Virus record (IMG/VR): IMGVR_UViG_3300028024_000105
Coordinates: 32,811-96,810 of that record
Reading direction: 5' to 3' (one strand)
Origin: a virus
DNA length: 64,000 nucleotides
Shown here: positions 25,183 through 62,012 of the stretch, piece by piece
Position numbering within the stretch: position 1 is the first letter of the stretch
How the letters are laid out: the number at the start of each line of letters is the position of its first letter
Notes under the pieces: model-generated
Database searches by the model: none
What the model was told of the DNA's origin: nothing
The model's input: the letters and a program-made list of their open reading frames with translations, nothing else
Translations under genes and position numbers: made by a program

Positions 25183-25190
25183 TTTTGCCT

Positions 25191-26081: not shown

Positions 26082-26117
26082 ACCACCTTGGACCCTGCGC
26101 CGCTCGGCGGCGCGAAT

Positions 26118-26356
26118 CACTACACCCAGCACTACACCTGGAATCGCGGTTGATGGAGCCGCGCGAAACACTTAGGGAATCAGTGCATTGTGGGCGACAA
26201 CGTCGTCAAGCACTCAATTTCTAATCTTGGCCGACGCCCAGTGTATCGCGTTTTGATCTGTCTTTTCCCAGTGGACGGATGGTACATGGTGGGTCGCTGT
26301 GGGTCCTGAAAGGACGCATTCACTACACCCAGCACTACACCCAGCACTACACCTGG
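26118..26356. repeat. 12-bp direct repeats (2+3 copies) flanking a non-coding core; candidate attP
   Basis: CACTACACCCAG/CACTACACCTGG at 26118, 26130, 26321, 26333, 26345; IHF-consensus AATCAGTGCATTG at 26178. Confidence 0.7.
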
Positions 26357-26369
26357 GCGTCTTTGTAGG

Positions 26370-26576
26370 TCACGGCCTTGCTCCGTATTCGATCTCCGCG
26401 CCGTCCTTCTTCAGCCGAGCCACGAGCGCGTCGGCATCTTTCTTCGACAGGTGCGAGTGGATCTCGTAGACCACGACGGTGATCTTCTTCGAGGACGCCT
26501 GATTCTCTTCTTCTGGAATGCTGATGCCGAGATTGTAGGTGCCGCGCCCGTCGTACAGGTAGGCAACGCTCTTCAT
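26370..26576 (-). CDS. hypothetical protein
   Basis: ATGA overlap within the minus-strand operon. Confidence 0.55.
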   Translation of the reverse strand: MKSVAYLYDGRGTYNLGISIPEEENQASSKKITVVVYEIHSHLSKKDADALVARLKKDGAEIEYGARP

Positions 26577-26791
26577 TTGTGCACCTGCATCATGAGGTTG
26601 TACCGCTCGATGTCCTTGGCTTTCTTGATACTCCAGTTCCGGCCGTACGCCAGAGCAAGGACCCGTTCGCGCTCCTTCAACGACATCCAGAACCAGACCG
26701 CGTTCGTGTTGACTTCGCGCTGCGCCGTCACAAGGATCTCGTCGAACTTCTTCCCGAAGTCGGTACGACGTTTGGAACCGTAAGTGCTCAC
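26573..26791 (-). CDS. hypothetical protein
   Basis: GTG start, overlap-coupled. Confidence 0.55.
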   Translation of the reverse strand: MSTYGSKRRTDFGKKFDEILVTAQREVNTNAVWFWMSLKERERVLALAYGRNWSIKKAKDIERYNLMMQVHK

Positions 26792-26987
26792 GCTCCCACC
26801 GCCTTCTTCGTCTTCTTCCACCACACCTTCAGCCTGGTCTCGTGGCGCCTGCCGTCGCCGTGCTCCCAGCCCGGGATCTCGTCGCTGCAGAGCCCGGTGT
26901 GGCCCGTCTTGCGGCTGCACTGGAGCGAGTTGCCCGCTTCGCCTGGTAGGCCGCCGACCCTGATCTCGGCGTAGCTGCCGCAGCGGG

Positions 26988-27425
26988 TCATTTCTCGTTC
27001 TCCTCGAGCGGCAGCAAGCCCGAAGACATCTGCTCGGGCGTGACTCCGTAGGCTGCGTCGGCGTTGAAGCCGCAGCCCTTCATGATCCCCGGGTTGGTTG
27101 GACGCTCGATCTCCGGCGTGGCGTAGAAGGGGTAGCCGCTGCACATCTTCGGCTTGTCGGCCTGGATCGTGCAGCCCTGCTTGCCGTCGGCCATCACTCC
27201 GAGCATCTTGCACGGGCCGTAGTAGAACCTCATGCCGTAGCCGACGTCGCGTTTGCCGAGGCATCGACCCTCGAGCATCGGGAACAGCATCCAGATATCT
27301 TGCATGATCGTGATTCCCGGCGCTTGGTCGCGCCAAGCGCGGAAGTTGTCTCTCAGCTCGCGCGGACTCGGCGGGATGTGAAGGACCTTGCAGCACATTC
27401 CGCTGCGCTGGCATCCGATGCTCAC
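26988..27425 (-). CDS. YkgJ-like cysteine-cluster protein
   Basis: CQRSGMCC...CKML...CTIQADKPKMCSGYPF. Confidence 0.75.
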   Translation of the reverse strand: MSIGCQRSGMCCKVLHIPPSPRELRDNFRAWRDQAPGITIMQDIWMLFPMLEGRCLGKRDVGYGMRFYYGPCKMLGVMADGKQGCTIQADKPKMCSGYPFYATPEIERPTNPGIMKGCGFNADAAYGVTPEQMSSGLLPLEENEK

Positions 27426-27428
27426 GAC

Positions 27429-27638
27429 CTACTCCTTCTTTGCCGGACTCTGCGCCCATCCGCAGCGCGGGCAATACTGGCGGCCGTTGTCCCAGTCCGC
27501 CCCTTCGACCTTGATGTCGGACTGGCGGATCGCGGACTTGTCGAGGCTGCGGCAGGTGTCGGACGCGTCGATGAAGACGTTGATCTTCATCCGCAGCTTG
27601 CGCTCGCCGCACCTGGGACACCTGGGCTGCACGATCAT
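27429..27638 (-). CDS. Zn-ribbon protein
   Basis: CPRCG...YCPRCGW. Confidence 0.6.
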   Translation of the reverse strand: MIVQPRCPRCGERKLRMKINVFIDASDTCRSLDKSAIRQSDIKVEGADWDNGRQYCPRCGWAQSPAKKE

Positions 27639-28228
27639 GGATTGTCCAGCTTGTCGTACTTGTTCCACGCGACCCATCCGGTCTTCGCGTAGAAGCCCCA
27701 GATCCTCCGCACCGGCCCGCAGATGACGAGCGTCCAGACCGGGCTGCGGCTCACCCACTTGATGGTGTGGCTGTCCTCCGCGCGCTTCCAGTTGAACCAG
27801 CGCCTGCGCTCGGGCTCGGGATCGCCGATGAACGGGCAGGACTGGTGCCCGCAGTGATGCGGCACGTCCTCGACATAGTGGCCGCGCAGGATGATCGACA
27901 GGAAGCTCCACGGGTGATCGTGGAGATCCCGCTGCTGGTCCGGCCGGAAGATCCGGTGGAACTTGACGGAGAACCACGGCGTCGTGATCAGCGACACCCG
28001 GTCGATGTAGACCGTCTTGCCGTCGCTGATCTTCGTCCGGTTCATGAGGCCCCAGCGGCGGCCCTGCCGCTCGGTCTCCAGAGTGAGTTCGTCGCCTTCG
28101 AGCGGACTGCGCGTCACGCTCGCTTTCTGGTATTGGGACAACAGTGTGATCAGAAACGCGATGAGGGTGCCGACGACGACGAATCCTACGCCGAACGCGC
28201 GGGGGTCAATGTCGTAGATACTGAACAT
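27635..28228 (-). CDS. cupin-fold protein with an N-terminal TM helix
   Basis: LHDHPWSFLSIILRGHYVE...DSHTI...WTLVICGP..RIWGF. Confidence 0.75.
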   Translation of the reverse strand: MFSIYDIDPRAFGVGFVVVGTLIAFLITLLSQYQKASVTRSPLEGDELTLETERQGRRWGLMNRTKISDGKTVYIDRVSLITTPWFSVKFHRIFRPDQQRDLHDHPWSFLSIILRGHYVEDVPHHCGHQSCPFIGDPEPERRRWFNWKRAEDSHTIKWVSRSPVWTLVICGPVRRIWGFYAKTGWVAWNKYDKLDNP

Positions 28229-28231
28229 GCT

Positions 28232-28462
28232 CTACTCCTGTGTCCTCAACCACTCCAGCAGGTCGGGCTTGCGGAACATCACGCGGCGCCGACCGATGCG
28301 GACCTTGATCTCGAGAAGTGCGGCACCCAGCGGATCAGTGATTCCGCTCTTGGCGCGCTTCATGGTCTGGCGGACTGCGGCGGGAGAGCGGCCGACGTAC
28401 CTGGCGACTTCGTCGACGGTGATCAGGGGTGCGTCAGCCGGGCTCGTACGCTCTTGTCCCAT
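28232..28462 (-). CDS. excisionase-like winged HTH
   Basis: LITVDEVARYVGRSPAAVRQ...VRIGRRRVMFRKPDLLEWL; CGTCTGAC-N5-ATG. Confidence 0.75.
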   Translation of the reverse strand: MGQERTSPADAPLITVDEVARYVGRSPAAVRQTMKRAKSGITDPLGAALLEIKVRIGRRRVMFRKPDLLEWLRTQE

Positions 28463-29023
28463 GCTCCGTCAGACGCGCGGTCGCAGGAATTATCGACGCC
28501 TGGTGCGGATCAACGTCTTGGTTCGACCCTGCTTCTTGCAGTCGACGCAGGCGAAGCCCACGAGGACGTAGTCGAACGGCTTGGGCTGATGTGTGGTGAC
28601 GAGGAAGTGACAGCAGGAGAAAGGGTGATCGGGATTGCAGCGGTGACGTTCTGGGATCAGCACGAGTAGCGCCACGCTCGCGCGGCACCCGTCCACTCGA
28701 AGCCCATCTTCTCCATCGTCATGCGGTCCGGCAGCGAGAGCCGGTCCGGCCGGATGTCCGTGCCGATGTAGACGCTGTCGTCGGCGACGAAGAGACCGAG
28801 ATCCTGGGAGACGGGGATGTACTTCTGCAGGAGCTGCAGGGCCTGGAGGAAATGGCGGCCTTTCATTCGTCGCTCGCTTTCTCTTTGCGCTTCTCGGTGT
28901 TGTGGGTCCGGTCGTCGCGACACCATCCGCAGGAGCCGCCGGTCCGACAGGCCCGGCAGAACCGCCCGGCCCGCCGGTACGGTTTCCGCTTGTCCTTCCG
29001 CTTGGGGTAATTCTTGTCGAAGC

Positions 29024-29431
29024 TCACGTCGTCTTGGACTCGGTGTCGATGCGCCAGATGGTCTGGATGCCGCCCGAGCCCGGCTTGGTGATGTCCACCT
29101 GGCTGGACCGCACGTGCATGTGGGTCTGGACCGGGAAGTACATGCTCCCGATCTTGCCCTTGCGCGCGGCTGCGTAGAGCAGGCCCTGGGGGCTGTACTC
29201 CACGTGCAGCGCGACTTCCGGCGTGACGGCGGGCTCGGCTGCCCGCATGATGGTCTCGAGGCTGCTCGTCAGCTCGGCCGCGAAGGCGTCGAGCTGCCCC
29301 TCGGTCAGAAGCGGCTTGATCGCGCAGAACGATGCGCGGTAGTAGCTCCCCGCCGAATCCGAGATGTCCTGCTTCGCATTCTTGAGGACGTCTCGCCACC
29401 ACGCAACGGCCGCGCTGATCGCATCGTTCAT
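29024..29431 (-). CDS. hypothetical protein
   Basis: AAVAWW...LHVEYSPQGLL..AA...FP; SD GAGG. Confidence 0.7.
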   Translation of the reverse strand: MNDAISAAVAWWRDVLKNAKQDISDSAGSYYRASFCAIKPLLTEGQLDAFAAELTSSLETIMRAAEPAVTPEVALHVEYSPQGLLYAAARKGKIGSMYFPVQTHMHVRSSQVDITKPGSGGIQTIWRIDTESKTT

Positions 29432-29684
29432 CGCTCTTTCCTCTCCAAAAGATGAATGATCAGGGCAGCGAGAGCGATGCCCGTTGCGAGCACTAGCCAG
29501 AGTTCAAAGCCCAAACGGGCCAATAGCTCCGGCAGGGGAACTGCCCTGACCATGTTCCGTAGGACGTGTTCACGAATGATTTCTGAAACGATTGCCCATT
29601 ACCAACCGTCTATGCATTGGGAGCAGTGCGACCGGGAGAGCAGTTAGGAGTACCGAGCGGCTATCGAGCAAAGCCGTTATGAGG

Positions 29685-29712
29685 TTGCTTCCCGGGCGCG
29701 AGCTGCTATACT
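29685..29712 (+). promoter_or_regulatory. sigma70-like promoter with extended -10
   Basis: TTGCTT-N16-TATACT with TG at -15/-14. Confidence 0.5.
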
Positions 29713-29739
29713 CTCGGAGGGGTAATAGGAGACCGTACC

Positions 29740-30408
29740 ATGGAGCAACGCCTGAAGCAGTGCGTCAAGGTCGAGAAGCCGCTGGTCGGAGGCAAGCTCC
29801 GAGCCAAGAAGGGGTACATCTACTTCTGGACCGAAGACGGGATGCGCTGGTTCCGCCACAACGAGCGGGCCTACCGTAGCATGCGCCAGATCCGGTCTCT
29901 CGAGAACAAGCTGGCCAGACACTTCCCTGAAGTGAAGATCAAGAACCACGTCGACAAGCACGGGGAGCTGCCGGACGGTCTGGACAAGGGCGGCCTGCCG
30001 ATCAAGACCTTCCCCCTGGTGTTCGGTGACGGGCGGCGCCGAGATCACCCCCGCCTGGAGCACCTGCAGAAGAAGATCGGCCAGCTAGAGCGTGAGAAGA
30101 AGGAGCTGCAGGCCATCGTCGCGCTGACCGGCGATGCCGATTTCGTGCCCACCGATTTCGTCACCAATCTAGGCTCCAACCTGGTGCAGGAGTACACTCG
30201 GCCGGACGGGACCAAGACGCTCGGCATGCAGATAGCGGGCGAGCCCGAGATCCGCCTGACCCGAGCACAGTGGCAGAACATGGTCGAGTTTCAAGAGGTC
30301 ATCGTCGACGCGCTCCGGAAGTACGGAGAGCACGTCAAGCGCCGGACCTTGGGATACGACCGGAGCGCGCAGGACGCGCCGTCGGACGTCCACATGCCGA
30401 AGAACTGA
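29740..30408 (+). CDS. hypothetical protein
   Basis: SD AGGAG; 222 aa with a central coiled coil. Confidence 0.7.
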   Translation: MEQRLKQCVKVEKPLVGGKLRAKKGYIYFWTEDGMRWFRHNERAYRSMRQIRSLENKLARHFPEVKIKNHVDKHGELPDGLDKGGLPIKTFPLVFGDGRRRDHPRLEHLQKKIGQLEREKKELQAIVALTGDADFVPTDFVTNLGSNLVQEYTRPDGTKTLGMQIAGEPEIRLTRAQWQNMVEFQEVIVDALRKYGEHVKRRTLGYDRSAQDAPSDVHMPKN

Positions 30409-30493
30409 CCACTATCTGCAGGGCAGTTACAGATTGCCTGTCACACCGATAGGCCACTGCCGTCCTATTCCCGTCACCGAAACGGAGGATGGG

Positions 30494-31165
30494 ATGAAGA
30501 CCTGGGCGCTGCACCGCGAAGACCTGATGACCCGCGAGGAGTGGCTGAAGCTCCGTTCCCACCTGCAGGCCAAGTACGACCTGGCCGTCGCCCGCGACAC
30601 CTGGACGGCGGTTCAGGATCTGGTCATCTGCTTCACCGCCATCTACACGGGCCTGCGCCGGATGGAGCTGGCCGGACTTCGGCTCGGTGACCTGCACCTG
30701 ACGAATGAGAATCCCTTCATCGTGGTCCGCCACGGTAAGGGTGACAAATTCCGCGAGGTCGTGATCTCCCCGAGCACGCGCGCGATGCTGAAGTCCTTCC
30801 TGCGCTCGCAGCACGTGACGCCCGAGGACGCGCCGGATCGCTTCCTGTTCGTCCCGCAGCGCGGCGAGCACTACACCCCGGACGGGATCTACCGGGTCTG
30901 GAAGACGGCCTGCCGCGAAGCGGGCATCCGCGAGGTCTCCATCCACAAGGCCCGGCACCTGTACTGCACCACCCTCTACGCGGTGAAGAAGGACGCCCGG
31001 TTCGTGCAGCGGCAGGCCGGACACACGCGCCTGACCACGACGCAGGTGTACATCGACATCACCGACGTGGACGCCAACGAGAATCTGGTCCTTCTCGATA
31101 AGGCTTTGACGCAGCGTCCTACGGTGCATGAATCTGTCGGAGGCGCTGGCTGCCGCACAGCGTAA
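30494..31165 (+). CDS. tyrosine recombinase, catalytic domain only
   Basis: YTGLRRMEL, HGKGDK, IHKARHLY, AGHTRLTTTQVY; class I-like promoter GTCAC-N16-CGTC at 30440. Confidence 0.9.
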   Translation: MKTWALHREDLMTREEWLKLRSHLQAKYDLAVARDTWTAVQDLVICFTAIYTGLRRMELAGLRLGDLHLTNENPFIVVRHGKGDKFREVVISPSTRAMLKSFLRSQHVTPEDAPDRFLFVPQRGEHYTPDGIYRVWKTACREAGIREVSIHKARHLYCTTLYAVKKDARFVQRQAGHTRLTTTQVYIDITDVDANENLVLLDKALTQRPTVHESVGGAGCRTA

Positions 31166-47916: not shown

Positions 47917-48714
47917 ATGGGAAAGCTCTACGCCTGCCTCAACGTTTATCAGGAAGAGCACCTTCTCCCTGACTGCCTGCGCTCCGTTCGCGAGAACCTC
48001 CCCGAAGCCGAGATCATCCTGATCGACGGCGCCTACGAATCCTGGATTCTGCAGGTCAAGGTTCAGGCCGCCATGGAGTACGCCGAGGGCCACGTCGAGC
48101 TGGCCGAGAGCATGCTCCGGTTCGTCTCCCCGATCTCGACCGACGCCACCATCCAGATCGCCAAGGACTTCAAGGTCGAGCACATCGTGATGCCGCAGAC
48201 GCAGTGCATGTGCGGCGGGAAGAAGACGCCGACCGGCTACTACGAGAAGGGCGCCTACCTGCCCTGGCCGTCGGAATGGCAGAAGCGCGCCCGCTTCTTC
48301 GACTTCGGACGGAACGGGGACTACTACTTCATCGTCGACGCCGACGAGCGGCTGCGTGGCAAGCCCGCGCCCCTGGTCGCCGACCACTACGCCGTGGTCC
48401 TGAAGCGCGACGACGACATCAGCCCCTACCCGGTGCACCGCGTCTTCAAGCACCGGCCCGGGATCAAGATGGAAGGCGCTCACATGGCGGTCTGGGCCAA
48501 CGAGCTGGTGCAGGACCCGGCGACCAAGGCCGACGTGATCAAGCCGGTCCTGATGCGGAAGGACGAGGCACCGATCCTGCAGGGCTGCCACTTCGACCAT
48601 CTCTTCGTCGGCCGCTACAAAGCCGATCAGGTCCGGACCCAAGCCAAGGGGGCGTACTACCGCAGGGGTCTGTCCAAGGAAGAGGAGAAGTTCCGCGCGG
48701 AACACGACATCTAA
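47917..48714 (+). CDS. glycosyltransferase family 2-like protein
   Basis: CLNVYQEEHLLPDCLRSV...IILIDG...STDAT...YFIVDADER (DxD). Confidence 0.85.
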   Translation: MGKLYACLNVYQEEHLLPDCLRSVRENLPEAEIILIDGAYESWILQVKVQAAMEYAEGHVELAESMLRFVSPISTDATIQIAKDFKVEHIVMPQTQCMCGGKKTPTGYYEKGAYLPWPSEWQKRARFFDFGRNGDYYFIVDADERLRGKPAPLVADHYAVVLKRDDDISPYPVHRVFKHRPGIKMEGAHMAVWANELVQDPATKADVIKPVLMRKDEAPILQGCHFDHLFVGRYKADQVRTQAKGAYYRRGLSKEEEKFRAEHDI

Positions 48715-52895: not shown

Positions 52896-55325
52896 ATGCA
52901 GACGGGCAGTGGCGAGACGACCCTGACGGCGGTCCTTCGACTGCGCGACGAGATGTCGCCGCAGCTCGAGAAATCCAAGTCCGCCCTGGCCGGGATGCCC
53001 GTCGGCTTCGACATCCTCAAGAAGGCTGCCACCAAGGCGATGGCCATCATCACCGGCAGCCTGATCCTCATGACCAAGTCGGTCATGAGCACCGCCGACG
53101 AACTCGACAAGATGAACCGCCAGACCGGCGTGTCCGTCGAGACGCTCCAGAAGCTGGCGTTCGTCGCCGCCGAGTCGGGCGCAAGCCTGCAGGACATCGG
53201 ATCGGGCATGAAGTTCCTGGGTCGCAGTCTCGCTGCAGCGAAGAACGGCGGGCAGGAAGCCATCGAAGCATTCCGCCTTCTCGGCGTCGGCATCGAAGAA
53301 CTGAAGGCGCCGGGCATGACCACCGAGAAGCTGTTCATGCGCATCGCCGACTCGATGCAGTTCCTGAGCGACGAGCAGCGGCAGGAAGTCTTCAAGGTCA
53401 TGGGCAGGGGCGCGGCTGATTTGATCCCGCTCCTGTCTCAGGGCTCCGCAGCCATCACGGCCCTGGGCGACGCCGCCAAGGAGACCGGCGCCATCATGTC
53501 CGGCGAGGCCGTGAAGGCGCTCGACTCCTTCGGCGACCAGCTCACTGGCATGGGGATGGCCCTGAAGGGCATGTGGGGCGAGCTGCTCGCATCGCAGACC
53601 GTCTCCCTGCCGAAGATCATCGAGGGCTTCGGCGTCTTCATGGTCGCCATCAGCGACGTGAAGGGCAAGTTCGTGCTGGCGTTCAAGACCGTCCAGAACG
53701 CGCTGACCTTCGCGGCGGTCGTCATCAAAGCCACCTTCAACGCCATCGTCGACACCATCCAGATTTCGATGGCCAAGGCGGTCGACGCAATTCGTACGCC
53801 GCTCATGCTCCTCGCGCGCGGGCTCAACAAGGCCGGTCTCATGGCCGACGAGACGCTCGCCAAGATGCAGGTGGCGTTCGACGGCTTCGGGGCTGTCGCG
53901 CAGAAGAGCCTGAAAGATCCGTTCGCCAACCTGGGCGTCACGATCAAGCAGGAATACGCCGTCGCCATGCAGGCGCAGGGCGAGTTCGTCGACGAGATGA
54001 AGGCCGACTACAAGGCCGCCGTCGACTCCGTGGACATCTTCACCGGCCGCCTGAAACAGGCCGCAGCCCTGCAGACCGACATGGGCCGCGACAAGGCCGT
54101 CAAGCAGGCCAAGACCAAGAGCGACCCTCTCGACGAAATCCTCGCCATGGCCAAGGCGTTGAACATCGTCACCACCGAGCAGAAGAAGCTCAACCAGATG
54201 GCGGACGACTTCGCCAAGAAGAGCGGCATCCGGCTGAACGCCGAGCAGATGAAGATGCTCGCGGACGCGGCGGCCAAGGGCGACGCCGCCGTCCAGCAGC
54301 TCTTCGAGGACATCACCAAGGCGACTGAGGCGGACCCGCTCAAGGGCATGCAGCTCGCGCTGTGGGACCTGACCCAGCGCACCTACAGCTTCCGCGACGC
54401 CTGGGGCAAAATCTTCGAGGATCTGCGCTCGGGCTTCAGCGAGACCTTCGCCAACGCCATCGACGGAACCGAGAAGTTCGGCGACGGCTTCAAGAAGGTC
54501 ATGAAGGACCTGAAGCGGAACCTGATCAAGATGTTCACCGACTTCGCCACCAACCAGCTCTTCGGAGCGGCGGGCGGTCTGTTCGGGAGCGTCTTCGGCG
54601 CGTCCAGCCCTGCCGCCCCCGGGACGGGTGTGGGGCAGCCGGGCACGACTCCGGGCATGAGCGGTATGGGCGGGCAGATCGGCGGCCTGGCCAGCGGCAT
54701 CGGCAGCGCGCTCGGCATGAGCGGAGGCACGTTCGGGGCCGTCGCCGGACTCGGCGCGGCAGGCGCCGCGCTCACCGTGTCGGGCGTCTCGAACGGGAAC
54801 GTCACGCAGGGGACCATGGGGGGAGCCCTAGCGGGCATGGCCACAGGCGCGGTCATTGGATCGGTGATTCCCGGCATCGGCACAGTTATTGGTGGGGTTG
54901 TTGGTGCCATCGTTGGCGGCCTTGCTGGATTCCTGGGCAGCTCCGCGAAGAAGAAAAAGAAGGCGCGCGAAGCGGCGCGGAAAGCGGCAGCAGCGCTGGC
55001 GGCCTACAACGAGGCTCTGTCCAAAGCCCGGGTCGTCCTGAAGGGCGACATTCGGAACAAGCTGGGCGGCGGTCTCGCGACCGAAGAGGCGGCGGCGGAC
55101 ATCGGACATCTTTTCAGCGAGGATCTCAGTGCGGACGAGATCATGAAGTTCGGAGACCCGGCCGCCATCGCAGCCAAGGAAGCCGCCGTCGATCGGCAGA
55201 ACAACATCAATGCCCCGATCACGGTGAATGCCACCATCACGGGATCGTATGACGCGCAGAGACTTGCCGAAGACCTGTCATACCACCTGCAGAATCAGAT
55301 GGGCGGCGCGGCGGGCGGTCTATAA
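52896..55325 (+). CDS. tape measure protein
   Basis: 809 aa Ala/Gly-rich helical protein; ADELDKMNRQTGVSVETLQKL..AA; Gly-rich TM-like segments. Confidence 0.92.
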   Translation: MQTGSGETTLTAVLRLRDEMSPQLEKSKSALAGMPVGFDILKKAATKAMAIITGSLILMTKSVMSTADELDKMNRQTGVSVETLQKLAFVAAESGASLQDIGSGMKFLGRSLAAAKNGGQEAIEAFRLLGVGIEELKAPGMTTEKLFMRIADSMQFLSDEQRQEVFKVMGRGAADLIPLLSQGSAAITALGDAAKETGAIMSGEAVKALDSFGDQLTGMGMALKGMWGELLASQTVSLPKIIEGFGVFMVAISDVKGKFVLAFKTVQNALTFAAVVIKATFNAIVDTIQISMAKAVDAIRTPLMLLARGLNKAGLMADETLAKMQVAFDGFGAVAQKSLKDPFANLGVTIKQEYAVAMQAQGEFVDEMKADYKAAVDSVDIFTGRLKQAAALQTDMGRDKAVKQAKTKSDPLDEILAMAKALNIVTTEQKKLNQMADDFAKKSGIRLNAEQMKMLADAAAKGDAAVQQLFEDITKATEADPLKGMQLALWDLTQRTYSFRDAWGKIFEDLRSGFSETFANAIDGTEKFGDGFKKVMKDLKRNLIKMFTDFATNQLFGAAGGLFGSVFGASSPAAPGTGVGQPGTTPGMSGMGGQIGGLASGIGSALGMSGGTFGAVAGLGAAGAALTVSGVSNGNVTQGTMGGALAGMATGAVIGSVIPGIGTVIGGVVGAIVGGLAGFLGSSAKKKKKAREAARKAAAALAAYNEALSKARVVLKGDIRNKLGGGLATEEAAADIGHLFSEDLSADEIMKFGDPAAIAAKEAAVDRQNNINAPITVNATITGSYDAQRLAEDLSYHLQNQMGGAAGGL

Positions 55326-55352: not shown

Positions 55353-56204
55353 ATGCGCCAGCATAGGCTCCCACCAAGTCCCCTACCTGAAAACTGGCAA
55401 CACTTTAGTGCTTCCAAGAAGCACAGACTAAGTGTATTGGCCGCAGGTCTCTGCGGCTCCTGCTACAAGAATCCATTCGTAGCTGGTAAAACAAAGTGTC
55501 AACCATGCCTAGACAAACAAAAAGGTGAGCACAAACTATTACTTGAAAGTAGTGTTTGCACCACATGTAAAGAGCCATGGAACGGACCGCAGAATAAGTG
55601 CGACCCTTGTCGAAAGGAAATATCAATTCAAGGCCATCTGGCTCGACGCAAGAATGCCAAAAGGAAATCCTGCCTTAGTTGCGGCGCACCAAGAGATTGT
55701 GAAGGACGCATATGTGCTAAGTGCTTGAACGACTCGAACGACAGAAGGCGGGCAATTCGTGAACGCCGGAAGATCGACGGGTGTTGCGCAGATTGTGATC
55801 GAAAGAGCGTTGGAAACAGCGGCTTCTGCCGCTACCACTTCTTTTATTTCTACGCCGCTAAACTCGGCGATGTCACGAAGGCAGACGACCTAGAGCAGAT
55901 GTGGGAACATCAGGCTGGTAAATGTGAAATCTGTCCTCACCGCATGATTCTGGCAGTCGACATAAATCTTTGCCATTATAAAGATCGTGATCGGTATCCC
56001 GAATTGGCCAATGATCTTACGAATCTCTTTTGGGGTCATGCCTATTGCAACCGAAGTCAAAGTAACAAAACTCTTCCTGAATACTTTCAGCACTGCATCG
56101 AGGTCGTCGAAACAGCTCGCCTGAGAGGTCATTTAGATTCGTCGGGATTGGTCCAAGAGTCTGTATGGCCACTCCCTACATCGCATTTGACGGTGTCCAG
56201 CTAG
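55353..56204 (+). CDS. Cys-rich multi-Zn-finger HNH-like protein
   Basis: Many CxxC pairs; QAGKCEIC...LCH...NL.W.H.YCNRSQ; AT-richer; CGTCCTAC-N5-ATG. Confidence 0.7.
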   Translation: MRQHRLPPSPLPENWQHFSASKKHRLSVLAAGLCGSCYKNPFVAGKTKCQPCLDKQKGEHKLLLESSVCTTCKEPWNGPQNKCDPCRKEISIQGHLARRKNAKRKSCLSCGAPRDCEGRICAKCLNDSNDRRRAIRERRKIDGCCADCDRKSVGNSGFCRYHFFYFYAAKLGDVTKADDLEQMWEHQAGKCEICPHRMILAVDINLCHYKDRDRYPELANDLTNLFWGHAYCNRSQSNKTLPEYFQHCIEVVETARLRGHLDSSGLVQESVWPLPTSHLTVSS

Positions 56205-56941
56205 ACGATTACTTCGCCACCTGGCAGGAGCAGGCGAACTCCCGCATCAACGCGGTGACCGTGCCCCGGCGCCACGGCGCGCTGATCACGGACTCCGTGG
56301 TCGAGGACCCCCGCATCATCGGCGTGACCGGCCGGATGCAGAACGACGATCCGGAGGACCTGCGCGACATCATCGACCAGTTGTCCGAACTGTTCCAGCG
56401 CCGCAACAAGCGGCTCCAGCTCTGGAGTGACCGCTTCATCACGGCCTACAAGTCTCAGTTCGGGTTCGCCTACGTTCCCGGCTCCGGCATGCGTGCCGCA
56501 GACTTCAGCCTGCAGTTCTTCTGTCCCGATCCGTTCTGGTACGACACAACCCCCGACGCCGTCGACTTCGACCTGGCGCAGACGGATCTCGCGCTCGACA
56601 TCACGAACAACAAGTACCGGCGCGAGATCACGGTCACGAACGACGGAGACGTCTACGTCTACCCGACCATCACGGTCACGCCCGGCGGGACGCCGCTGAC
56701 CACCATCGTGGCACGCAACATCACGTCGGGTCGTATGTTCACCTATCTCGGCACCGTCGCGGTGGGCACGGCGCTCGTGGTCAACATGGCCGCCTTCACG
56801 GTGGAGAACAACGGCATCGAGGACCTGCAGAACTTCTCCAACAGCGACTTCTGGGCTCTCCAGCCCGGCGACAATGTGATCCAGATCGAGGGGACGGCGC
56901 CCGCCAACTACGACTTCGCCTTCACGAAGCGGTTCCCGTAA
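56165..56941 (+). CDS. distal tail protein (Dit-like)
   Basis: VPRRHGA...PRII.VTG...F.CPDPFWY...NDGDV..YP...LQPGDN.I. Confidence 0.85.
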   Translation: MATPYIAFDGVQLDDYFATWQEQANSRINAVTVPRRHGALITDSVVEDPRIIGVTGRMQNDDPEDLRDIIDQLSELFQRRNKRLQLWSDRFITAYKSQFGFAYVPGSGMRAADFSLQFFCPDPFWYDTTPDAVDFDLAQTDLALDITNNKYRREITVTNDGDVYVYPTITVTPGGTPLTTIVARNITSGRMFTYLGTVAVGTALVVNMAAFTVENNGIEDLQNFSNSDFWALQPGDNVIQIEGTAPANYDFAFTKRFP

Positions 56942-57615
56942 TGATCCGGCAGGAGCTGGATTTTCCCAAGGGGCTCATTCCCGCACGCCCACGCCTGCGC
57001 GGGCAGGCGCGCATGATGGTCGTCGACCGCAAGACCGGCGCCCGGCAGCACCGCAGCATCCTGGAGCTGCCCGAGTTCCTCCTGGGAGACGAGGTCTGGG
57101 CCAACCGTTCGCTGGCCGAGGGGTTCGATCCGGAGCTGCAACCGGTCTATGCTTCCGCACCCGGTTCCCACGCCAGCCCTACCGCCGGGCTTCCGATCCC
57201 GCGCGAGCTGGTCGACCGGCTCAACGTTCGCACGCTGACTCTGCACATCGGCAGTCCAAGAGAGCAGGACGACATTCTCAAGGGATACCAGACCGGTCTG
57301 GGTTGGCGGGAGTGGTACCAAATCCCCCAAGCCCCGGCCGGTCGAATTGCAGCCATCGGGACGACGGTGGTGAAAGCCTTCGAGACCTGGGCGCGGACCG
57401 GAGAGCTGACCGGCTGGAGCCGACTCTTCATCCAGCCCCCGTTCGAGTTCAAAGTGATCGGGAAGATGTTGACGAACTGGCACTTCCCGGGCGAGCCGCT
57501 GCTCGCGCTGACCTGTGCATTCGGTGGTGTTGATGTGATTCGTGAGGCGTACGAGGCGGCCGTCGCGGAAGGATACCTCTTCTCCGACTACGGCGACCGG
57601 CTCCTGATCATCTAA
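56941..57615 (+). CDS. queA: truncated QueA-like protein (SAM:tRNA ribosyltransferase-isomerase family)
   Basis: ARMMVVDR, QPVYA..PGS.ASPTAGL, LTLHIG, EWY, AIGTTVV.A.E, LFI.P, LTNWH.P, AF.G, AY..AV..GY.F..YGD. Confidence 0.85.
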   Translation: MIRQELDFPKGLIPARPRLRGQARMMVVDRKTGARQHRSILELPEFLLGDEVWANRSLAEGFDPELQPVYASAPGSHASPTAGLPIPRELVDRLNVRTLTLHIGSPREQDDILKGYQTGLGWREWYQIPQAPAGRIAAIGTTVVKAFETWARTGELTGWSRLFIQPPFEFKVIGKMLTNWHFPGEPLLALTCAFGGVDVIREAYEAAVAEGYLFSDYGDRLLII

Positions 57616-60600
57616 TGAGTTGCGTTGGAAGCGCCCCGACCTTCTCGGACATCTCGTCCTGGACACTGTCGCATGACGGCTCCGGATGCGAGAACACCGC
57701 CACCATCCACGTCGACGCCCCTTGCGGCTCCAGCCTCTACACCATCAAGCTGACCCGCACCCAGAACGCCGTCGACACGGACGTGTACTCGGCCACCATC
57801 CCCGACGGCCCGCTCTCCGCATACCAGTTCCAGTACATCGACACCCCGCCCTGCGGCCGGGGCACGATCACCTACCATTGGACCATTCTGTGCGACGGCG
57901 CGGTCCAGAGCACGAGCTACACCAAGTCCGCCGATCAGGGTGGCCCACCCACGCTGTCGCCCGACACGATGGCGCACGACGGCGGCACCTGCGAGAACAC
58001 GCTCCAGCTTCGCGTCATCATGCCCTGCGGCGAGTGCGGCGGGACGGTCAAGCTGTATCGCACTCAGGGCAGCGAACCGACGATGACGGCGGGTGAGGTC
58101 ATCTACTCGAACACCGTCCCCGACGGTCCGTCCGACACGACCTACAACTACGCCGAGACGCCGCCCTGCATTCGCGGCACGTACTACTACCGGTGGCAGG
58201 TCGTCCTGCCCGCCGGAACCTACAACGGCGGACTGCATCAGGCTGACTCCGGCGGCCCGGCGGTCATCACCTTCCACGATGCGCAGGTCGACGCCGACTG
58301 CAACATCACGGCACGGATGCAGCTCTCGAAGCCCTGCGGCGAGTGCGCGGGCACCTGGAAGCTGTTCCGGAAGCTGAACTCGGCCAGCAGCTTCGACGCC
58401 AGCGAGGAGATCGCGAGCGGTGAAGTCCCGGCCGGGCCGCTGATCGGCTTCACCGTCACGCATACGGAGCACCCGGGCAACGGCCACTGGTACTACGCTT
58501 GGCGCGTCTACAACGACACGGGCGGTATCGACGACGAGTTCAGCAGCGACCTGGCCACCACCGAGTGCATCCCGTTCTACACCCCGACGCCCATCTCCCT
58601 GCCAGAGGATGCGTTCGAAAAGCAGATCGTCCTCGTTCAGGTCACCGGCACCCCCGGGGGCGGACTGGTGTACACCGACAGGAAGATCATGAATCTGGCC
58701 GAGCAGCGGCTGGAGTGGTGGTACCACAAGAACGGTGGGTGCGCCGGGTTCCGCCTGCTCACCCATGAGCTTCTCGACGACGAGTTCTTCGACGACACGC
58801 TCGACGAGTCGTGGGAGATCCACGTCCGTATCAAGCTCGGCGGCGAGGACACCTACACGACCTGGTATCGGGGCGTCATCCGATCCATCAAACATCAGGA
58901 GCAGGGCGTCGACGAGTACGCCGACATTCACGGCTACGGCTACGTCGAGATGCTCAACAACATTCAGGTGCAGCGGATCTACCGGGCCGGGCTCACGGTC
59001 AAGCAGGTAGTCGACGATATCATCGCCCAAGACGTCCGGCCGTATACCCGCATCGTCCGGCCGAACGATCTGGACCCCACCAACGGCGACAGCGGCGTGG
59101 TGGCATCCAACTACATCCTCAAGTCCGACGTGCACTTCGAGTGCTCGGCTCTCCGGGCCATCAAGTTTCTGGCAGAGATTCAGGGCAACCGCGAGTACGG
59201 CGTGGATGCGCAGCGCCGCTTCTACTTCCGCCTGAACTCCAGCACCGTCGGCGCCAACTTCTTCCTGGCCAAGGACGTCGTCGACCGCGTGGCAGGCGGC
59301 AAGTCGTTCGGGCAGACCAACAGCCTGAAGGTGGCTGGCAAGTCGTTCGGTGCTCGCGACTTCCTCAAGATCCGAGAAGACGTCACGGACGTGACCAGCT
59401 TCGGCCGCCGTGAGACCCCCGTCGAAGTCCCCTGGGTGACCGGAGACGGTGACGCGTCCGCGTGGGCCGACAACATCATCGCGGTCAACAAGACCAAGCA
59501 GGACTGGGCGGTCATCACCAAGAAGACCGTCACGTCCCGGCTGGAGAACTCCCACCCGCTCCCGCGCGTCACCGTCTACGGCGGTGACGTGTCGAACGAC
59601 GTCAAGACCTACGACATCGCCAAGATCCAGTACATCGAAGGCGGCACCCGGGCACCGCAGGAGATCCGTGAGAAAGGTGTCCCCAAGCAGCAGATGGACA
59701 CGGACCAGCCCCTGAAGGCGATGTACTATCTGGGCCGATACCCCAACGACCTGATCGACGAGCTGAAGGAGCGCGTCTACGACCAGATCGACGCGCTCAA
59801 GGGCCGCCACAAGCAGTTCCGCTATCCGAACGACATCACCAACGAGCTGATCAACATCTCGGGCAAGATCCCGGGCGAGATCAAGTTCTACCACAAGGTT
59901 CCGGACGTCACGAACATCGACGTCACCAACAGCCCCACCGACCTGTCCGACCCCACCAACCCGCGCGGTGTGCTGGTGGCCTGGATCGGAGGCCAATGGG
60001 TGCAACTCTCTCCCCGCCGCATCTTCCACACTCTGAGCGGCGTGCGCGGACAGTTCATCGGCGAGATCGTCTCGCTGATCACGGACACCACCAACTTCCA
60101 GATCGGAGCAATCTACTGGTGGACCGGCGCATCCTGGTCCCCCGTCGGTTCCGGCTCGGGCGCGGGCAACATCATGGAGGGCGCCCGCGTCCAGAAGACG
60201 TCGAACACCACGATCTCGCCCGGCGGGACGACGCTCTCGTACGACTTCGTGATCGCCAACGACAACGCCGTCTTCTCCTCCGGCACGCCCACGCTCCTGA
60301 CGGCCAAGACGACCGGCTACTACAACATCTCGGCCGACGTGCTCTGGGGCAAGGGACTGAACGGCACCTATCGGGAGATCCGCATCAAACTGACGTCCGG
60401 CGTGAACGTCAAGATCGTCGCGAAGGACCGCAAGGATGACTTCGTCCACAATGTGAAGCGGACCAACCACGTCGAGACCACGCTGCTCATGCTCGCGGGC
60501 GACTACATCGAGCTGATCGCCGACACGGACGCTCTGGACGGTGGCAACGTCGTCGAGTATTCGGAAGAGGTCTCGCCGGTCTTCTCCATGGCGCTCGTGT

Positions 60601-62012
60601 CCGGCGGCGGCATCACGAGCAGCTCCATCGGCACGCCGAGTGGCCCGGCGGGTGGCGACCTGGCAGGCTCCTACCCTGACCCGATCTGCAATAGCAACAT
60701 CGCCCGGACGTCTCAGATCATCGACGTGACGGCCCCGCTCTTCGAGCGTGACGGACACAACACGCTGGCCTACGACCTGTACTTCGACATCACCAACTTC
60801 CGGGGCTCCGGGGCCAACGCCAAGCGTGGCGTGGTTCCCTCGCCCGGAACTCCTGCCCGCATCGGACGCTTCCTTTGTGAAGACGTCACGAACCCATGGC
60901 AGTATCCCACGGCCATCCCGATTGGGTTCTTCGGCGACGGATCGGACGGGGATCTCGACATCTCCGGCAGCGGCGACACCACTCTGTCGTCTGGAGACAG
61001 TTTCAAGAACTACCGCAACGTCAATCTGGGCGCGAACACGCTGTACGTCCACGCCGACGACTTCGCCGCCATGATCTGCATCAGCGGGACGCTGACTTCC
61101 AACGGCGGACGCATCGCGCTCCTGCATCGCAACGGCACGGCTGGAGGCAACGGCCTGTTCGGCGGCGGCAACGGCGGGGCAGGCGGCGGCGACTCCGGCA
61201 TCCTGGTTGTTCGGGCGAAGTACCGCGCGGGGGCCATCACGCTGTTCGCGGCGGGGGCGGCGGGCGGCAACGGCACAAACGCTTCGGCGCGCTCGGGTAA
61301 CGGCGGCGGCGGGAGCGGCTTGCCCGGCGTCATCTCGCAGGCGCGAGTCAAAGGCTACGCCATCACGGTCGTGTCCGCCAAGATCCACGCCGTCAGCCCG
61401 GCAACGAATGGCGGCGACGGCGGCGTCGGAATGACCGCCGCGCAGAAGCGGGTCTTCAAGGATGTGGCTTCCTGGCTGCTCGGAGAGTCCGGTTTCCCGA
61501 CCTTCGCCAGTAGCGACCGCAGCATCTACTGGACCGAAACGGTCTCGGCAGCCTCTGGCGACGGGGGCGGTGGGGACCTGGCAGGCAAGGACGGCATGCC
61601 CGGCGCCGGAGGCGGCGGATGGTTCGTCAACGGCGGGCGGGGCGGTCATGCAGGAGTAGTCGGCACGGGTGGCAACGACGCACAGGGCGGTCCGGGCGGT
61701 GGCGGTGGCTCGGGAGGCGTTGTGGTGTTCGTATCCCTGTCGGATGGCAGTGGCGTCACTATCGACGTGCGCGGAGGCAACGGTGGATCGGCCGGGAACG
61801 CGTCCGGCGGCGGCTGTGGAGGTTCGGGTGGCGGCGGCGGGGGCTCGGGCGGACGGTCCTATTCGATCACTCGCGGCGTGACAGTTCCGACGCATATGGT
61901 GACCGGCGGCACGCCCGGCGCTCCTGGCCTTCCTGCGGGCGACGGCGGCGCAGCGGCTGCAGCAATTGCGGGCACCGATGGTATTGCAAGCAGCCTTCTA
62001 ATGAACGAGTAA
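57615..62012 (+). CDS. large tail tip/hub protein with N-terminal repeats and a Gly-rich C-terminus
   Basis: Hub-like core (GGCAGF, YRGVI, EYGVDAQRRFYF, SFGRRE); FFGDGSDG, then GGGGSGG repeats. Confidence 0.75.
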   Translation: MSCVGSAPTFSDISSWTLSHDGSGCENTATIHVDAPCGSSLYTIKLTRTQNAVDTDVYSATIPDGPLSAYQFQYIDTPPCGRGTITYHWTILCDGAVQSTSYTKSADQGGPPTLSPDTMAHDGGTCENTLQLRVIMPCGECGGTVKLYRTQGSEPTMTAGEVIYSNTVPDGPSDTTYNYAETPPCIRGTYYYRWQVVLPAGTYNGGLHQADSGGPAVITFHDAQVDADCNITARMQLSKPCGECAGTWKLFRKLNSASSFDASEEIASGEVPAGPLIGFTVTHTEHPGNGHWYYAWRVYNDTGGIDDEFSSDLATTECIPFYTPTPISLPEDAFEKQIVLVQVTGTPGGGLVYTDRKIMNLAEQRLEWWYHKNGGCAGFRLLTHELLDDEFFDDTLDESWEIHVRIKLGGEDTYTTWYRGVIRSIKHQEQGVDEYADIHGYGYVEMLNNIQVQRIYRAGLTVKQVVDDIIAQDVRPYTRIVRPNDLDPTNGDSGVVASNYILKSDVHFECSALRAIKFLAEIQGNREYGVDAQRRFYFRLNSSTVGANFFLAKDVVDRVAGGKSFGQTNSLKVAGKSFGARDFLKIREDVTDVTSFGRRETPVEVPWVTGDGDASAWADNIIAVNKTKQDWAVITKKTVTSRLENSHPLPRVTVYGGDVSNDVKTYDIAKIQYIEGGTRAPQEIREKGVPKQQMDTDQPLKAMYYLGRYPNDLIDELKERVYDQIDALKGRHKQFRYPNDITNELINISGKIPGEIKFYHKVPDVTNIDVTNSPTDLSDPTNPRGVLVAWIGGQWVQLSPRRIFHTLSGVRGQFIGEIVSLITDTTNFQIGAIYWWTGASWSPVGSGSGAGNIMEGARVQKTSNTTISPGGTTLSYDFVIANDNAVFSSGTPTLLTAKTTGYYNISADVLWGKGLNGTYREIRIKLTSGVNVKIVAKDRKDDFVHNVKRTNHVETTLLMLAGDYIELIADTDALDGGNVVEYSEEVSPVFSMALVSGGGITSSSIGTPSGPAGGDLAGSYPDPICNSNIARTSQIIDVTAPLFERDGHNTLAYDLYFDITNFRGSGANAKRGVVPSPGTPARIGRFLCEDVTNPWQYPTAIPIGFFGDGSDGDLDISGSGDTTLSSGDSFKNYRNVNLGANTLYVHADDFAAMICISGTLTSNGGRIALLHRNGTAGGNGLFGGGNGGAGGGDSGILVVRAKYRAGAITLFAAGAAGGNGTNASARSGNGGGGSGLPGVISQARVKGYAITVVSAKIHAVSPATNGGDGGVGMTAAQKRVFKDVASWLLGESGFPTFASSDRSIYWTETVSAASGDGGGGDLAGKDGMPGAGGGGWFVNGGRGGHAGVVGTGGNDAQGGPGGGGGSGGVVVFVSLSDGSGVTIDVRGGNGGSAGNASGGGCGGSGGGGGGSGGRSYSITRGVTVPTHMVTGGTPGAPGLPAGDGGAAAAAIAGTDGIASSLLMNE

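What the first reader, a model, noticed from the sequence alone, without database searches (positions are those of the whole stretch)
56941..57615. Minimal QueA lacking its beta-barrel domain, coupled between Dit and the tail tip gene
Seen: a 224 aa QueA-like ORF joined by TAATG overlaps on both sides. Only about 10 residues separate VWAN from QPVYA, where QueA (about 340-350 aa) has an inserted beta-barrel domain. Conserved motifs are altered: AAPTAGLHF to ASPTAGLPI, TNFHLP to TNWHFP, YRFFSYGDA to YLFSDYGDR. Established: QueA transfers and isomerises the ribosyl of SAM onto the amine of preQ1 in tRNA. No tgt/dpdA/queCDEF genes occur in this window. Inference: a repurposed SAM-ribosyl transferase acting on a non-tRNA amine (preQ1 in DNA, or a virion protein/glycan), or a SAM-consuming anti-restriction protein delivered with the tail.
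Basis: partly seen in the sequence, partly recalled or inferred. Interest (0 to 1): 0.8.

Follow-up and report, generated by a model that had tools for sequence, protein, structure and literature searches.

The report
Barrel-less QueA in phage tail operon
An uncultured soil phage of about 97 kb and its relatives carry, wedged between two tail-tip genes, a shortened but well-conserved copy of the bacterial tRNA-modifying enzyme QueA that has lost its barrel domain and most of its conserved basic residues but kept its conserved core, pointing to a new, untested job for this SAM-using fold at the phage tail.

Summary
ORF 56941-57615 (+, 224 aa) is a true QueA homologue (PF02547, E 4.7e-40). A confident model (pLDDT 95.6) matches only QueA structures. 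The inserted beta-barrel (about 110 residues) is replaced by a 13-residue linker. One-base TAATG overlaps join the gene to Dit upstream and to a 1465-aa baseplate hub (Tal) downstream.

It is not a decayed gene. At least 42 intact barrel-less homologues exist (13 to 14 clusters at 50% identity). The order tube-TMP-Dit-QueA-like-hub holds in five other contigs, down to 33% identity and 44% GC.

All 21 positions invariant in the short family are also invariant in canonical QueA. About 28 of 35 conserved basic positions are gone, as are the AGLHF histidine and the GxGTF motif. This is probably no longer a tRNA enzyme.

A DNA-preQ1 role is unlikely. TGT/DpdA, QueC and QueD are absent from this record and from a complete relative.

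The gene co-occurs with a clade-specific Cys-rich N-terminal extension of the hub.

My best reading (0.4) is a SAM-using enzyme acting on or with the tail tip. Purely structural reuse is the main rival.

The scan found this family before on another genome. I rate it a new variant of a known kind, interest 0.6.

The parts
52896..55325 (+). Tape measure protein (809 aa), upstream member of the conserved tail-tip gene order
   Evidence: PHROG tape-measure families, E down to 3e-22; homologous and syntenic in L001-L004 and L008
56165..56941 (+). Distal tail protein Dit (258 aa, minimal form); its stop overlaps the QueA-like start by one base
   Evidence: PF22768 SPP1_Dit, PF05709 Sipho_tail, phrog_33 at E 2.4e-36; 33-65% identical orthologues directly upstream of the QueA-like gene in five loci
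56941..57615 (+). Barrel-less QueA-like protein (224 aa): the alpha/beta domain of QueA only
   Evidence: PF02547 at E 4.7e-40; AlphaFold2 pLDDT 95.6 and pTM 0.93; Foldseek finds only QueA chains 1wdi, 1vky and 1yy3, E 4e-16 to 4e-13, TMq 0.73-0.76; 42 intact barrel-less homologues
57097..57135 (+). Linker (residues 53-65) that stands where canonical QueA has its beta-barrel of about 110 residues
   Evidence: PDB alignments: query 19-52 to 1wdi 23-58 and 66-224 to 169-345; every barrel column is a gap in the short family
57615..62012 (+). Baseplate hub / Tal-like tail-tip protein (1465 aa); its start overlaps the QueA-like stop by one base
   Evidence: Residues 340 to about 630 match gp27-like hubs (8zdo_s Z 10.9, 9gtr_q 10.5, 9d93 8.3, 1wru 7.9, 6v8i 7.4, 2wzp 7.3, from a model of pLDDT 50); 24 homologues of the hub region
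57615..58631 (+). Clade-specific N-terminal extension of the hub: conserved N-terminal motif M-(x)-C-x-G-x-x-P-T-F, then three Cys-containing repeats of about 100 aa (C-x9-13-CG), probably beta-sandwich
   Evidence: Alignment A3; 21 of 24 hub homologues start with the motif, and most of them continue with 1-4 repeats. The more distant hubs without a QueA-like gene (L095, L096, L122) start directly with the first hub strand or carry other inserts. ESM Atlas gives an Ig_J/fn3 lead only (score 0.81)

Best explanation
The gene encodes a re-purposed QueA core. It keeps the alpha/beta domain that in QueA is thought to hold S-adenosylmethionine. It has lost the barrel and the basic surface, and so probably tRNA recognition. 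It is made late, from the same transcript as Dit and the baseplate hub, with tight junctions consistent with translational coupling. I propose that it still binds SAM and uses it on a non-tRNA acceptor at the tail tip. My prime candidate acceptor is the clade-specific Cys-motif/Ig-like N-terminal extension of the hub protein encoded immediately downstream, with the enzyme acting either during tip assembly or as a baseplate-borne accessory. Shown: homology, fold, domain loss, the conservation pattern, synteny, and co-occurrence with the hub extension. Inferred: SAM binding, catalysis, the acceptor, and presence in the virion.
For: (1) It is a true QueA-core homologue with a confident fold. (2) It is a stable family. 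There are 33 barrel-less sequences in the first search, 42 after the exhaustive search, and 13 to 14 clusters at 50% identity. No decayed copies were seen. In a quick (not finished) tree all but one long-branch short form group together, with internal branches up to 0.7 changes per site. (3) All 21 positions at least 93% conserved across the 42 sequences are also invariant in canonical QueA: N55, Y70, P80, G83, L101, E124, G140, T141, T142, E148, P166, T178, N179, H181, A193, F194, G196, A207, G218, D219, L222. Nine of them are polar or charged. In the model they lie at the C-terminal ends of strands and at helix starts. That is where the unassigned ligand of 1VKY lies according to PMC1282579, which also says the barrel is unlikely to contact SAM. 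(4) tRNA features are gone. Of 35 conserved K/R positions, 15 lie in the deleted barrel, and of the 20 in the core only about 6 or 7 stay basic. (5) The order tube-TMP-Dit-QueA-like-hub holds in L001-L004 and L008, at 33-67% identity and 44-63% GC, with overlaps of 1-4 bases or gaps of 1 base. Its identity to the L001 orthologue (67%) is like that of Dit (65%), tube (73%) and hub (75%). (6) Contig lengths tie ten QueA-like proteins to ten hub homologues. Nine of those hubs begin with the M-(x)-C-x-G-x-x-P-T motif; the tenth, P0241, starts differently, probably a miscalled start. Three outgroup lineages with related Dit and hub lack the QueA-like gene (profile search, with positive controls) and also lack the Cys extension.
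Against: Several canonical invariants are lost or replaced. These are the His and Phe of PTAGLHF, the GxGTF motif, the His before the invariant Glu, the Asp and usually the Gln of the D..YQTVYA motif, and A to R in GDAML. The QueA reaction itself may therefore be impossible. No SAM-bound QueA structure was found in the PDB copy, so which residues bind SAM is an inference. Nothing here shows binding to Dit or hub, presence in the virion, or any activity. No fusion to a tail protein was found. In one outgroup (L122) a second Dit paralogue occupies the same gene position, and in others Dit carries large insertions. That fits a purely structural slot.
Confidence: 0.4

Rival explanations
1. Purely structural reuse. 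The QueA alpha/beta domain serves as a catalytically dead baseplate or tip-assembly accessory, for example decorating the Dit ring or holding the hub's N-terminal extension.
For: The gene sits in a conserved position, with tight junctions, between Dit and hub. Several canonical invariants are lost. In relatives without it the same slot holds extra structural mass: Dit of 488 or 740 aa, or a second Dit paralogue. It diverges at the same rate as its structural neighbours.
Against: Nine polar or charged residues invariant in QueA stay 95-100% conserved across 42 sequences that are down to about 32% identical. Dead enzymes rarely keep such residues. No fold match to any tail protein was found in the PDB or BFVD.
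Confidence: 0.25
2. A SAM-consuming counter-defence protein that rides on the tail tip and enters the cell with the DNA, lowering SAM for SAM-dependent restriction or BREX-type systems.
For: The putative SAM-site residues are retained while tRNA features are lost. The late, tail-linked expression would allow loading onto the virion. From my own knowledge: phage T3 SAM lyase shows that SAM destruction is a working counter-defence.
Against: A tail tip would carry only a few copies. From my own knowledge, QueA turns over at only a few reactions per minute, far too slow to deplete cellular SAM. Known virion-delivered anti-restriction proteins travel in the head. The strict co-occurrence with a hub extension is not explained.
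Confidence: 0.12
3. A minimal but ordinary QueA that still converts preQ1-tRNA to epoxyqueuosine-tRNA, that is, an auxiliary gene tuning host translation.
For: PF02547 membership and a retained core. The phage has other tRNA-related genes: a Thg1-like gene, an RNA ligase and tRNA-Arg.
Against: It lacks the barrel and about 28 of 35 conserved basic positions. It lacks the AGLHF histidine and GxGTF. It scores far below the equivalog cut-offs. It sits in the late tail operon in every locus. Phage-borne forms of 313-336 aa that keep a barrel remnant and the canonical motifs exist separately.
Confidence: 0.07
4. It modifies preQ1 in phage DNA, giving a deoxy-queuosine-like base.
For: Only the chemical analogy with QueA. 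7-Deazaguanines do occur in phage DNA (PMC6884629).
Against: TGT/DpdA, QueC and QueD are absent from this record, from the relative with terminal repeats (G001, 93.7 kb) and from four further related records. No dQ was found in any phage tested, and no phage QueA was known (PMC6884629). A tail-operon position is odd for a DNA-modification gene.
Confidence: 0.03

Closest known systems
Bacterial QueA, tRNA preQ1(34) S-adenosylmethionine ribosyltransferase-isomerase (PF02547, TIGR00113, NF001140; PDB 1VKY, 1WDI, 1YY3)
   Same: Homologous alpha/beta domain (E 4.7e-40; Foldseek E 4e-16, TMq 0.76). It shares 21 invariant core positions, including N55, E124, G140-T141-T142, E148, T178-N179-x-H181 and G218-D219.
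   Different: No beta-barrel insert of about 110 aa. About 18 further residues are missing. The AGLHF histidine, GxGTF and other invariants are lost, as are about 28 of 35 conserved basic positions. Scores lie far below the equivalog cut-offs. It is encoded in a phage tail operon with no queuosine pathway genes.
Phage-borne near-full-length QueA forms of 313-336 aa (P0033-P0037; L005 in a 44-kb phage record with terminal repeats, and L009)
   Same: They are the closest full-length relatives: 47-51% identical over the shared core, against 35-40% for bacterial QueA. In the quick tree they form a group apart from bacterial QueA; its position relative to the short forms is not resolved.
   Different: They keep a reduced barrel and most canonical motifs, including the AGLHF histidine. 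Their neighbours differ. In L009 the gene follows a beta-helix, tailspike-like protein. In L005 the neighbours have no family.
Accessory proteins encoded between the distal tail protein and the central tip protein in other siphophages: lambda gpL, gpK and gpI, and the RcGTA hub and peptidase (from my own knowledge; RcGTA gene order as quoted in PMC8265664)
   Same: The same slot in the gene order, similar size, and in part enzyme-derived folds used for tip assembly.
   Different: No sequence or fold similarity. Foldseek and VIA found only QueA for this protein.
Phage T3 SAM lyase (SAMase), a counter-defence enzyme (from my own knowledge)
   Same: A phage-encoded protein whose family uses SAM in a non-methyl-transfer reaction.
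   Different: An unrelated fold and an early gene, not in a tail operon. The Pfam scan of this protein returned PF02547 only.

Membership tests
QueA (EC 2.4.99.17; PF02547 / TIGR00113 / NF001140) | Pfam PF02547 domain above the gathering score | tested here: met
   138.1 bits against a cut-off of 25, E 4.7e-40, in two stretches
QueA (EC 2.4.99.17; PF02547 / TIGR00113 / NF001140) | Equivalog-level score, as used to name a protein QueA | tested here: not met
   NF001140: 121.9 bits against 324. TIGR00113: 99 against 267.45. NF002398: 65.9 against 588
QueA (EC 2.4.99.17; PF02547 / TIGR00113 / NF001140) | Two-domain architecture: an alpha/beta domain with an inserted beta-barrel | tested here: not met
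   The barrel (1wdi residues 59-168) is replaced by a 13-residue linker. The architecture is described in PMC1282579
QueA (EC 2.4.99.17; PF02547 / TIGR00113 / NF001140) | Fold of the alpha/beta (semi-barrel) domain | tested here: met
   Model pLDDT 95.6. Foldseek 1wdi E 4.3e-16 with TMq 0.76, 1vky 1.9e-15, 1yy3 4e-13. Nothing else below E 0.2
QueA (EC 2.4.99.17; PF02547 / TIGR00113 / NF001140) | Full set of invariant residues of canonical QueA in the core | tested here: not met
   Most are kept (N55, E124, GTT, E148, TNxH, GD and others). Lost are D50, the D and usually the Q of D..YQTVYA, H85 and F86 of AGLHF, G104, G106 and F108 of GxGTF, and H119; A220 has become R
QueA (EC 2.4.99.17; PF02547 / TIGR00113 / NF001140) | Conserved basic positions, presumed to form the tRNA-binding surface | tested here: not met
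   Of 35 positions with at least 70% K/R in canonical QueA, 15 are deleted with the barrel and about 13 of the 20 core positions are no longer basic. That these positions bind tRNA is my inference.
QueA (EC 2.4.99.17; PF02547 / TIGR00113 / NF001140) | Pathway context (tgt, queC, queD and related genes) in the same genome | tested here: not met
   PF01702, PF06508 and PF01242 are absent from G000, G001 (terminal repeats) and G002-G005. The host could supply them; the host is unknown.
QueA (EC 2.4.99.17; PF02547 / TIGR00113 / NF001140) | SAM-dependent transfer and isomerisation of ribose onto preQ1-tRNA | not testable with these tools
   Needs an enzyme assay or queA complementation
Siphophage baseplate / tail-tip component | Encoded inside the TMP-Dit-hub gene block, tightly packed and conserved among relatives | tested here: met
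Siphophage baseplate / tail-tip component | Present in the virion, bound to Dit or hub | not testable with these tools
   Needs virion proteomics or cryo-EM. No cultured phage carries the gene.
Phage SAM lyase / SAMase (T3-type) | Sequence or fold membership | tested here: not met
   The Pfam scan at E up to 1 returned PF02547 only. Structure searches returned QueA only.

The most novel reading that the evidence does not exclude
The barrel-less QueA is a protein-modifying enzyme. It would transfer the SAM-derived ribosyl or epoxy-cyclopentanediol unit (expected mass shift about +114.03 Da, C5H6O3, if the chemistry is QueA-like) onto an amine of the hub protein's conserved N-terminal motif or Ig-like extension. 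That would be a previously unknown post-translational modification, here decorating a phage tail tip.
Probability: 0.1. Interest if true: 0.9.

Novelty: new variant of a known kind. Interest (0 to 1): 0.6.

Why it matters
QueA catalyses one of the most unusual SAM reactions known, and it has been regarded as a single-purpose bacterial tRNA enzyme. Published surveys state that no virus encodes QueA (PMC6884629, PMC8265664).

Here a conserved, diversified phage family keeps the QueA core, sheds the parts that probably recognise tRNA, and is locked into the tail-tip operon. That suggests a second use for this fold.

If the protein is active, it would reveal either a new acceptor for SAM-ribosyl chemistry, possibly a protein, or a new kind of tail-borne enzyme. 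If it is inactive, it is a clear case of a metabolic enzyme fold recruited into a virion machine.

Either way it gives a minimal, barrel-free QueA core of 224 aa. That is useful for finally locating the SAM site of the family.

Tried and rejected
- **Complex prediction.** Dit + hub N-terminal 450 aa + QueA-like scored 0.00; no verdict, so it is not used as evidence.
The context of most database homologues could not be read. I used matching contig lengths instead.
- **Phage collection.** No close relative. The protein hits are full-length QueA in unannotated or doubtful records, and there is no DNA match for the tail module.
- **BFVD viral structures.** No match.
- **GTDB species genomes.** No barrel-less relative, so no prophage or host lead.
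- **Metagenome scan.** Swamped by bacterial QueA. Only L008 added a clear short-form locus.
- **Fused forms.** None with tail proteins among proteins of 413-2000 aa.
- **Hub region.** The profile against PDB sequences found nothing. The hub model has low confidence (pLDDT 50), so only the consistent list of hub folds is used.
- **Rfam on 50-64 kb.** Nothing.
- **Sequencing runs.** No RNA holder listed. The only full holder is a soil metagenome that may be the source of this DNA.
- **A link to the radical-SAM/SPASM gene (25191-26171, minus strand).** Rejected: it is absent from G001 and other relatives.
- **A link to the sugar genes (GT2, DegT, epimerase).** DegT is shared by G000 and G001 and lies within about 10 kb of the tail genes in G001, but glycosyltransferases also occur in relatives without the QueA-like gene. 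This is not informative.
- **Neighbours of the 313-336-aa forms (L005, L009).** PHROG and Pfam gave almost nothing.
- **ESM Atlas on the hub extension.** Scores of about 0.81, a lead only.
- **Literature on QueA catalytic residues or QueA-like paralogues.** Nothing usable beyond PMC1282579.
Full report
**What is there**

The window is the last 64 kb of a 96,810-base IMG/VR virus record (linear, CheckV completeness estimate 73%). The only full holder of this DNA is a soil metagenome that may be its source.

ORF 56941-57615 (+) encodes 224 aa. Its ATG shares one base with the TAA of the upstream gene, and its TAA shares one base with the ATG of the downstream gene, giving TAATG at both junctions.

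The protein matches Pfam PF02547 (Queuosine_synth) at E 4.7e-40 in two stretches. It matches the three solved QueA structures at E 1e-28 to 1e-21. It stays far below the NCBIfam QueA equivalog cut-offs: 122 against 324 bits, and 99 against 267.

In the PDB alignments, residues 19-52 pair with 1wdi 23-58 and residues 66-224 with 169-345. The inserted barrel of about 110 residues is therefore replaced by a 13-residue linker, and another 18 or so residues are missing further on.

An AlphaFold2 model built on 28 family members is very confident (pLDDT 95.6, pTM 0.93). Foldseek finds only QueA in the PDB (E 4e-16 to 4e-13, TMq 0.73-0.76, next hit E 0.2). It finds nothing in the BFVD library of viral proteins.

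**Surroundings**

Upstream lie these genes:
- a tail tube gene (PF18906);
- a tape measure protein of 809 aa;
- a window-specific ORF of 283 aa;
- Dit (PF22768, PF05709, phrog_33).

Downstream is a 1465-aa protein. Residues 340 to about 630 gave a low-confidence model (pLDDT 50). Its best structural matches are nevertheless uniformly gp27-like baseplate hubs or Tal proteins. Examples are the mycobacteriophage Douge baseplate (Z 10.9), the Bxb1 tip (8.3), Mu gp44 (7.9), 80alpha (7.4) and lactococcal p2 (7.3).

The rest of the record encodes:
- DnaE-type polymerase fused to UDG, gp32, RecA, Mre11/Rad50, helicases and primase;
- a Thg1-like protein and an RNA ligase;
- a methyltransferase, two integrases and one tRNA-Arg;
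- a radical-SAM/SPASM protein;
- portal-MuF and capsid;
- a GT2, DegT aminotransferase and epimerase cluster.

**Is it a real, maintained gene?**

Yes. The large protein database holds about 33 barrel-less relatives of 200-235 aa at 32-74% identity. An exhaustive profile search of 1.84 billion representatives finds 13 to 14 barrel-less clusters at 50% identity. All copies examined are intact.

In a quick tree (the careful search did not finish) all but one long-branch short form group together. Internal branches reach 0.7 changes per site. A set of phage-borne forms of 313-336 aa forms a group apart from bacterial QueA.

Five other contigs (L001-L004, L008) share the order tube-TMP-Dit-QueA-like-hub. 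They span 33-67% identity and 44-63% GC. Their gene junctions are overlaps of 1-4 bases or gaps of 1 base. Divergence from the L001 orthologue (67% identity) matches that of Dit (65%), tube (73%) and hub (75%).

None of 185,579 species genomes carries the short form. No cultured phage does either.

**What was kept and what was lost**

Across 42 barrel-less sequences, 21 positions are at least 93% conserved. They are N55, Y70, P80, G83, L101, E124, G140, T141, T142, E148, P166, T178, N179, H181, A193, F194, G196, A207, G218, D219 and L222. Every one is also invariant in canonical QueA. Nine of them are polar or charged.

In the model these positions sit at strand ends and helix starts. That is the usual active-site edge of an alpha/beta fold. 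It is also where an unassigned ligand lies in 1VKY according to PMC1282579, which judges the barrel unlikely to touch SAM.

Lost or replaced are:
- D50;
- the Asp and usually the Gln of D..YQTVYA;
- the His and Phe of PTAGLHF;
- the GxGTF motif;
- the His before the invariant Glu;
- A220, now Arg.

Of 35 positions where canonical QueA conserves Lys or Arg, 15 went with the barrel. Only about 6 or 7 of the remaining 20 stay basic. That these positions bind tRNA is my inference.

The pattern is a retained ligand-site core with a dismantled basic surface, presumably the one that held nucleic acid. It argues against both an ordinary tRNA enzyme and a simple dead scaffold.

**The DNA idea**

PF01702 (TGT/DpdA), PF06508 (QueC) and PF01242 (QueD) give no hit in any of these:
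- this record;
- the 93.7-kb relative with direct terminal repeats (G001);
- the records of L002, L003 and L004;
- the 44-kb record of L005.

Published surveys found no QueA in viruses and no dQ in phage DNA (PMC6884629; PMC8265664). A preQ1-DNA acceptor is therefore unlikely.

**A new association**

In this clade the hub protein carries an N-terminal extension in front of its first hub strand. The extension has a conserved extreme N-terminus, M-(x)-C-x-G-x-x-P-T-F. This is followed by one to four Cys-containing repeats of about 100 aa (C-x9-13-CG), probably beta-sandwich domains.

Of 24 database homologues of the hub region, 21 begin with this motif. Ten of them sit on contigs whose lengths match the contigs of ten QueA-like proteins. 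Nine of these ten hubs begin with the motif. The tenth, P0241, starts differently, probably because of a miscalled start.

Three more distant lineages have related Dit and hub proteins. They go from Dit (488 or 740 aa, or two tandem Dit paralogues) straight to a hub that starts with the hub strand. They have neither the QueA-like gene nor the Cys extension. This comes from a profile search with positive controls.

The QueA-like gene and the hub extension thus look like one clade-specific package.

**How it most likely works**

My best reading (0.4) is a SAM-using enzyme derived from QueA that no longer recognises tRNA. It would be made together with Dit and hub, which the tight junctions suggest. 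It would act on, or ride with, the tail tip, with the hub's N-terminal extension as the prime candidate acceptor or docking site.

Homology, fold, domain loss, conservation, synteny and co-occurrence are shown. SAM binding, catalysis, the acceptor and virion location are inferred.

The rivals are:
- **Purely structural reuse (0.25).** The lost invariants favour it, as does the fact that relatives fill the same slot with extra Dit mass.
- **A tail-delivered SAM consumer against host defence (0.12).** Few copies per virion and the slow turnover of QueA count against it.
- **A minimal true QueA (0.07).**
- **A DNA-preQ1 enzyme (0.03).**

A complex prediction gave no verdict and is not used.

**Comparison and novelty**

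The protein is a member of the PF02547 superfamily. It fails the architecture, equivalog-score, invariant-motif and basic-position tests for QueA proper, so it should not be annotated as QueA.

It is a new variant of a known kind: a domain-deleted QueA core in a virion-module context, with unknown chemistry.

The same family was reported twice before by this scan on another genome (e1-6005577, e1-6005589). My tests agree with those reports. They add:
- the count of lost basic positions;
- the exhaustive family census;
- the absence of the deazaguanine pathway from a relative with terminal repeats;
- the hub-fold assignment;
- the link to the hub's N-terminal extension.

Noticed in passing
window 55353-56204 (+): A 283-aa ORF sits between the tape measure gene and Dit and overlaps the Dit start by 40 bases. 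It is absent from L001-L004 and L008, where TMP abuts Dit. It has many CxxC pairs, and its C-terminal part weakly resembles the DraIII nuclease, which I take to be HNH-type (E 0.017). It is preceded by CGTCCTAC-N5-ATG and was left out by my third-position-GC gene filter. It is probably a homing-endonuclease insertion with its own start signal.
   Followed up: partly
L005 10001-10954 (IMG/VR record of 44,156 b with terminal repeats); L009 7500-8495: Phage-borne QueA forms of 313-336 aa keep a reduced barrel and the canonical motifs (AGLHF, partly GxGTF). They are the closest full-length relatives of the barrel-less family (47-51% identity). In L009 the gene follows a 541-aa beta-helix protein (DUF1565/Pel9A-like) that looks like a tailspike. 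These forms contradict the published statement that no virus carries QueA.
   Followed up: partly
protein P0116 (252 aa): This barrel-less QueA has fully canonical motifs (PTAGLHF, HVGLGTF, GDAMLII), and the barrel is cleanly excised between NDTKVFPARL and ERYQTIYA. It is either an independent second loss of the barrel or an assembly or gene-call artefact.
   Followed up: no
G000:C1:394-10154 (before the window) and G001:C1:69881-72026: A cluster of GT2 glycosyltransferase, DegT aminotransferase and NAD-dependent epimerase/dehydratase lies at the start of this record. In the close relative G001, GT2 and DegT lie 8-10 kb downstream of the tail-tip genes. If this genome is circularly permuted, the cluster would follow the tail genes here too. 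It may serve virion or cell-surface glycosylation.
   Followed up: partly
window 47917-48714 (+): The gene right after the major capsid gene has a weak GT2-like N-terminus (E 5.7e-4, below the cut-off).
   Followed up: no
G000:C1:22172-25798 (+), before the window: A 1208-aa DnaE-type DNA polymerase III alpha subunit (PHP, NTPase, finger and HHH domains) has a uracil-DNA glycosylase superfamily domain fused at its C-terminus.
   Followed up: no
window 22700-31165: This region looks like an island. It holds a tyrosine integrase (22700-23791), tRNA-Arg(tct) (24557-24633), minus-strand genes including a radical-SAM/SPASM protein (25191-26171), and a second integrase-family gene (30434-31165). The radical-SAM gene is absent from the close relative G001.
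   Followed up: partly
L122 3379-6320: A distant relative has two tandem Dit paralogues (279 and 252 aa) between TMP and a 450-aa hub. The second one occupies the slot that the QueA-like gene fills in this clade. Other relatives (L095, L096) instead have Dit proteins enlarged to 488 and 740 aa.
   Followed up: partly
G000:C1:17838-18500 and window 1849-2862: A Thg1-like tRNA-His guanylyltransferase homologue and an RNA ligase (PF09414 with an OB domain) suggest tRNA repair or editing functions in this phage.
   Followed up: no
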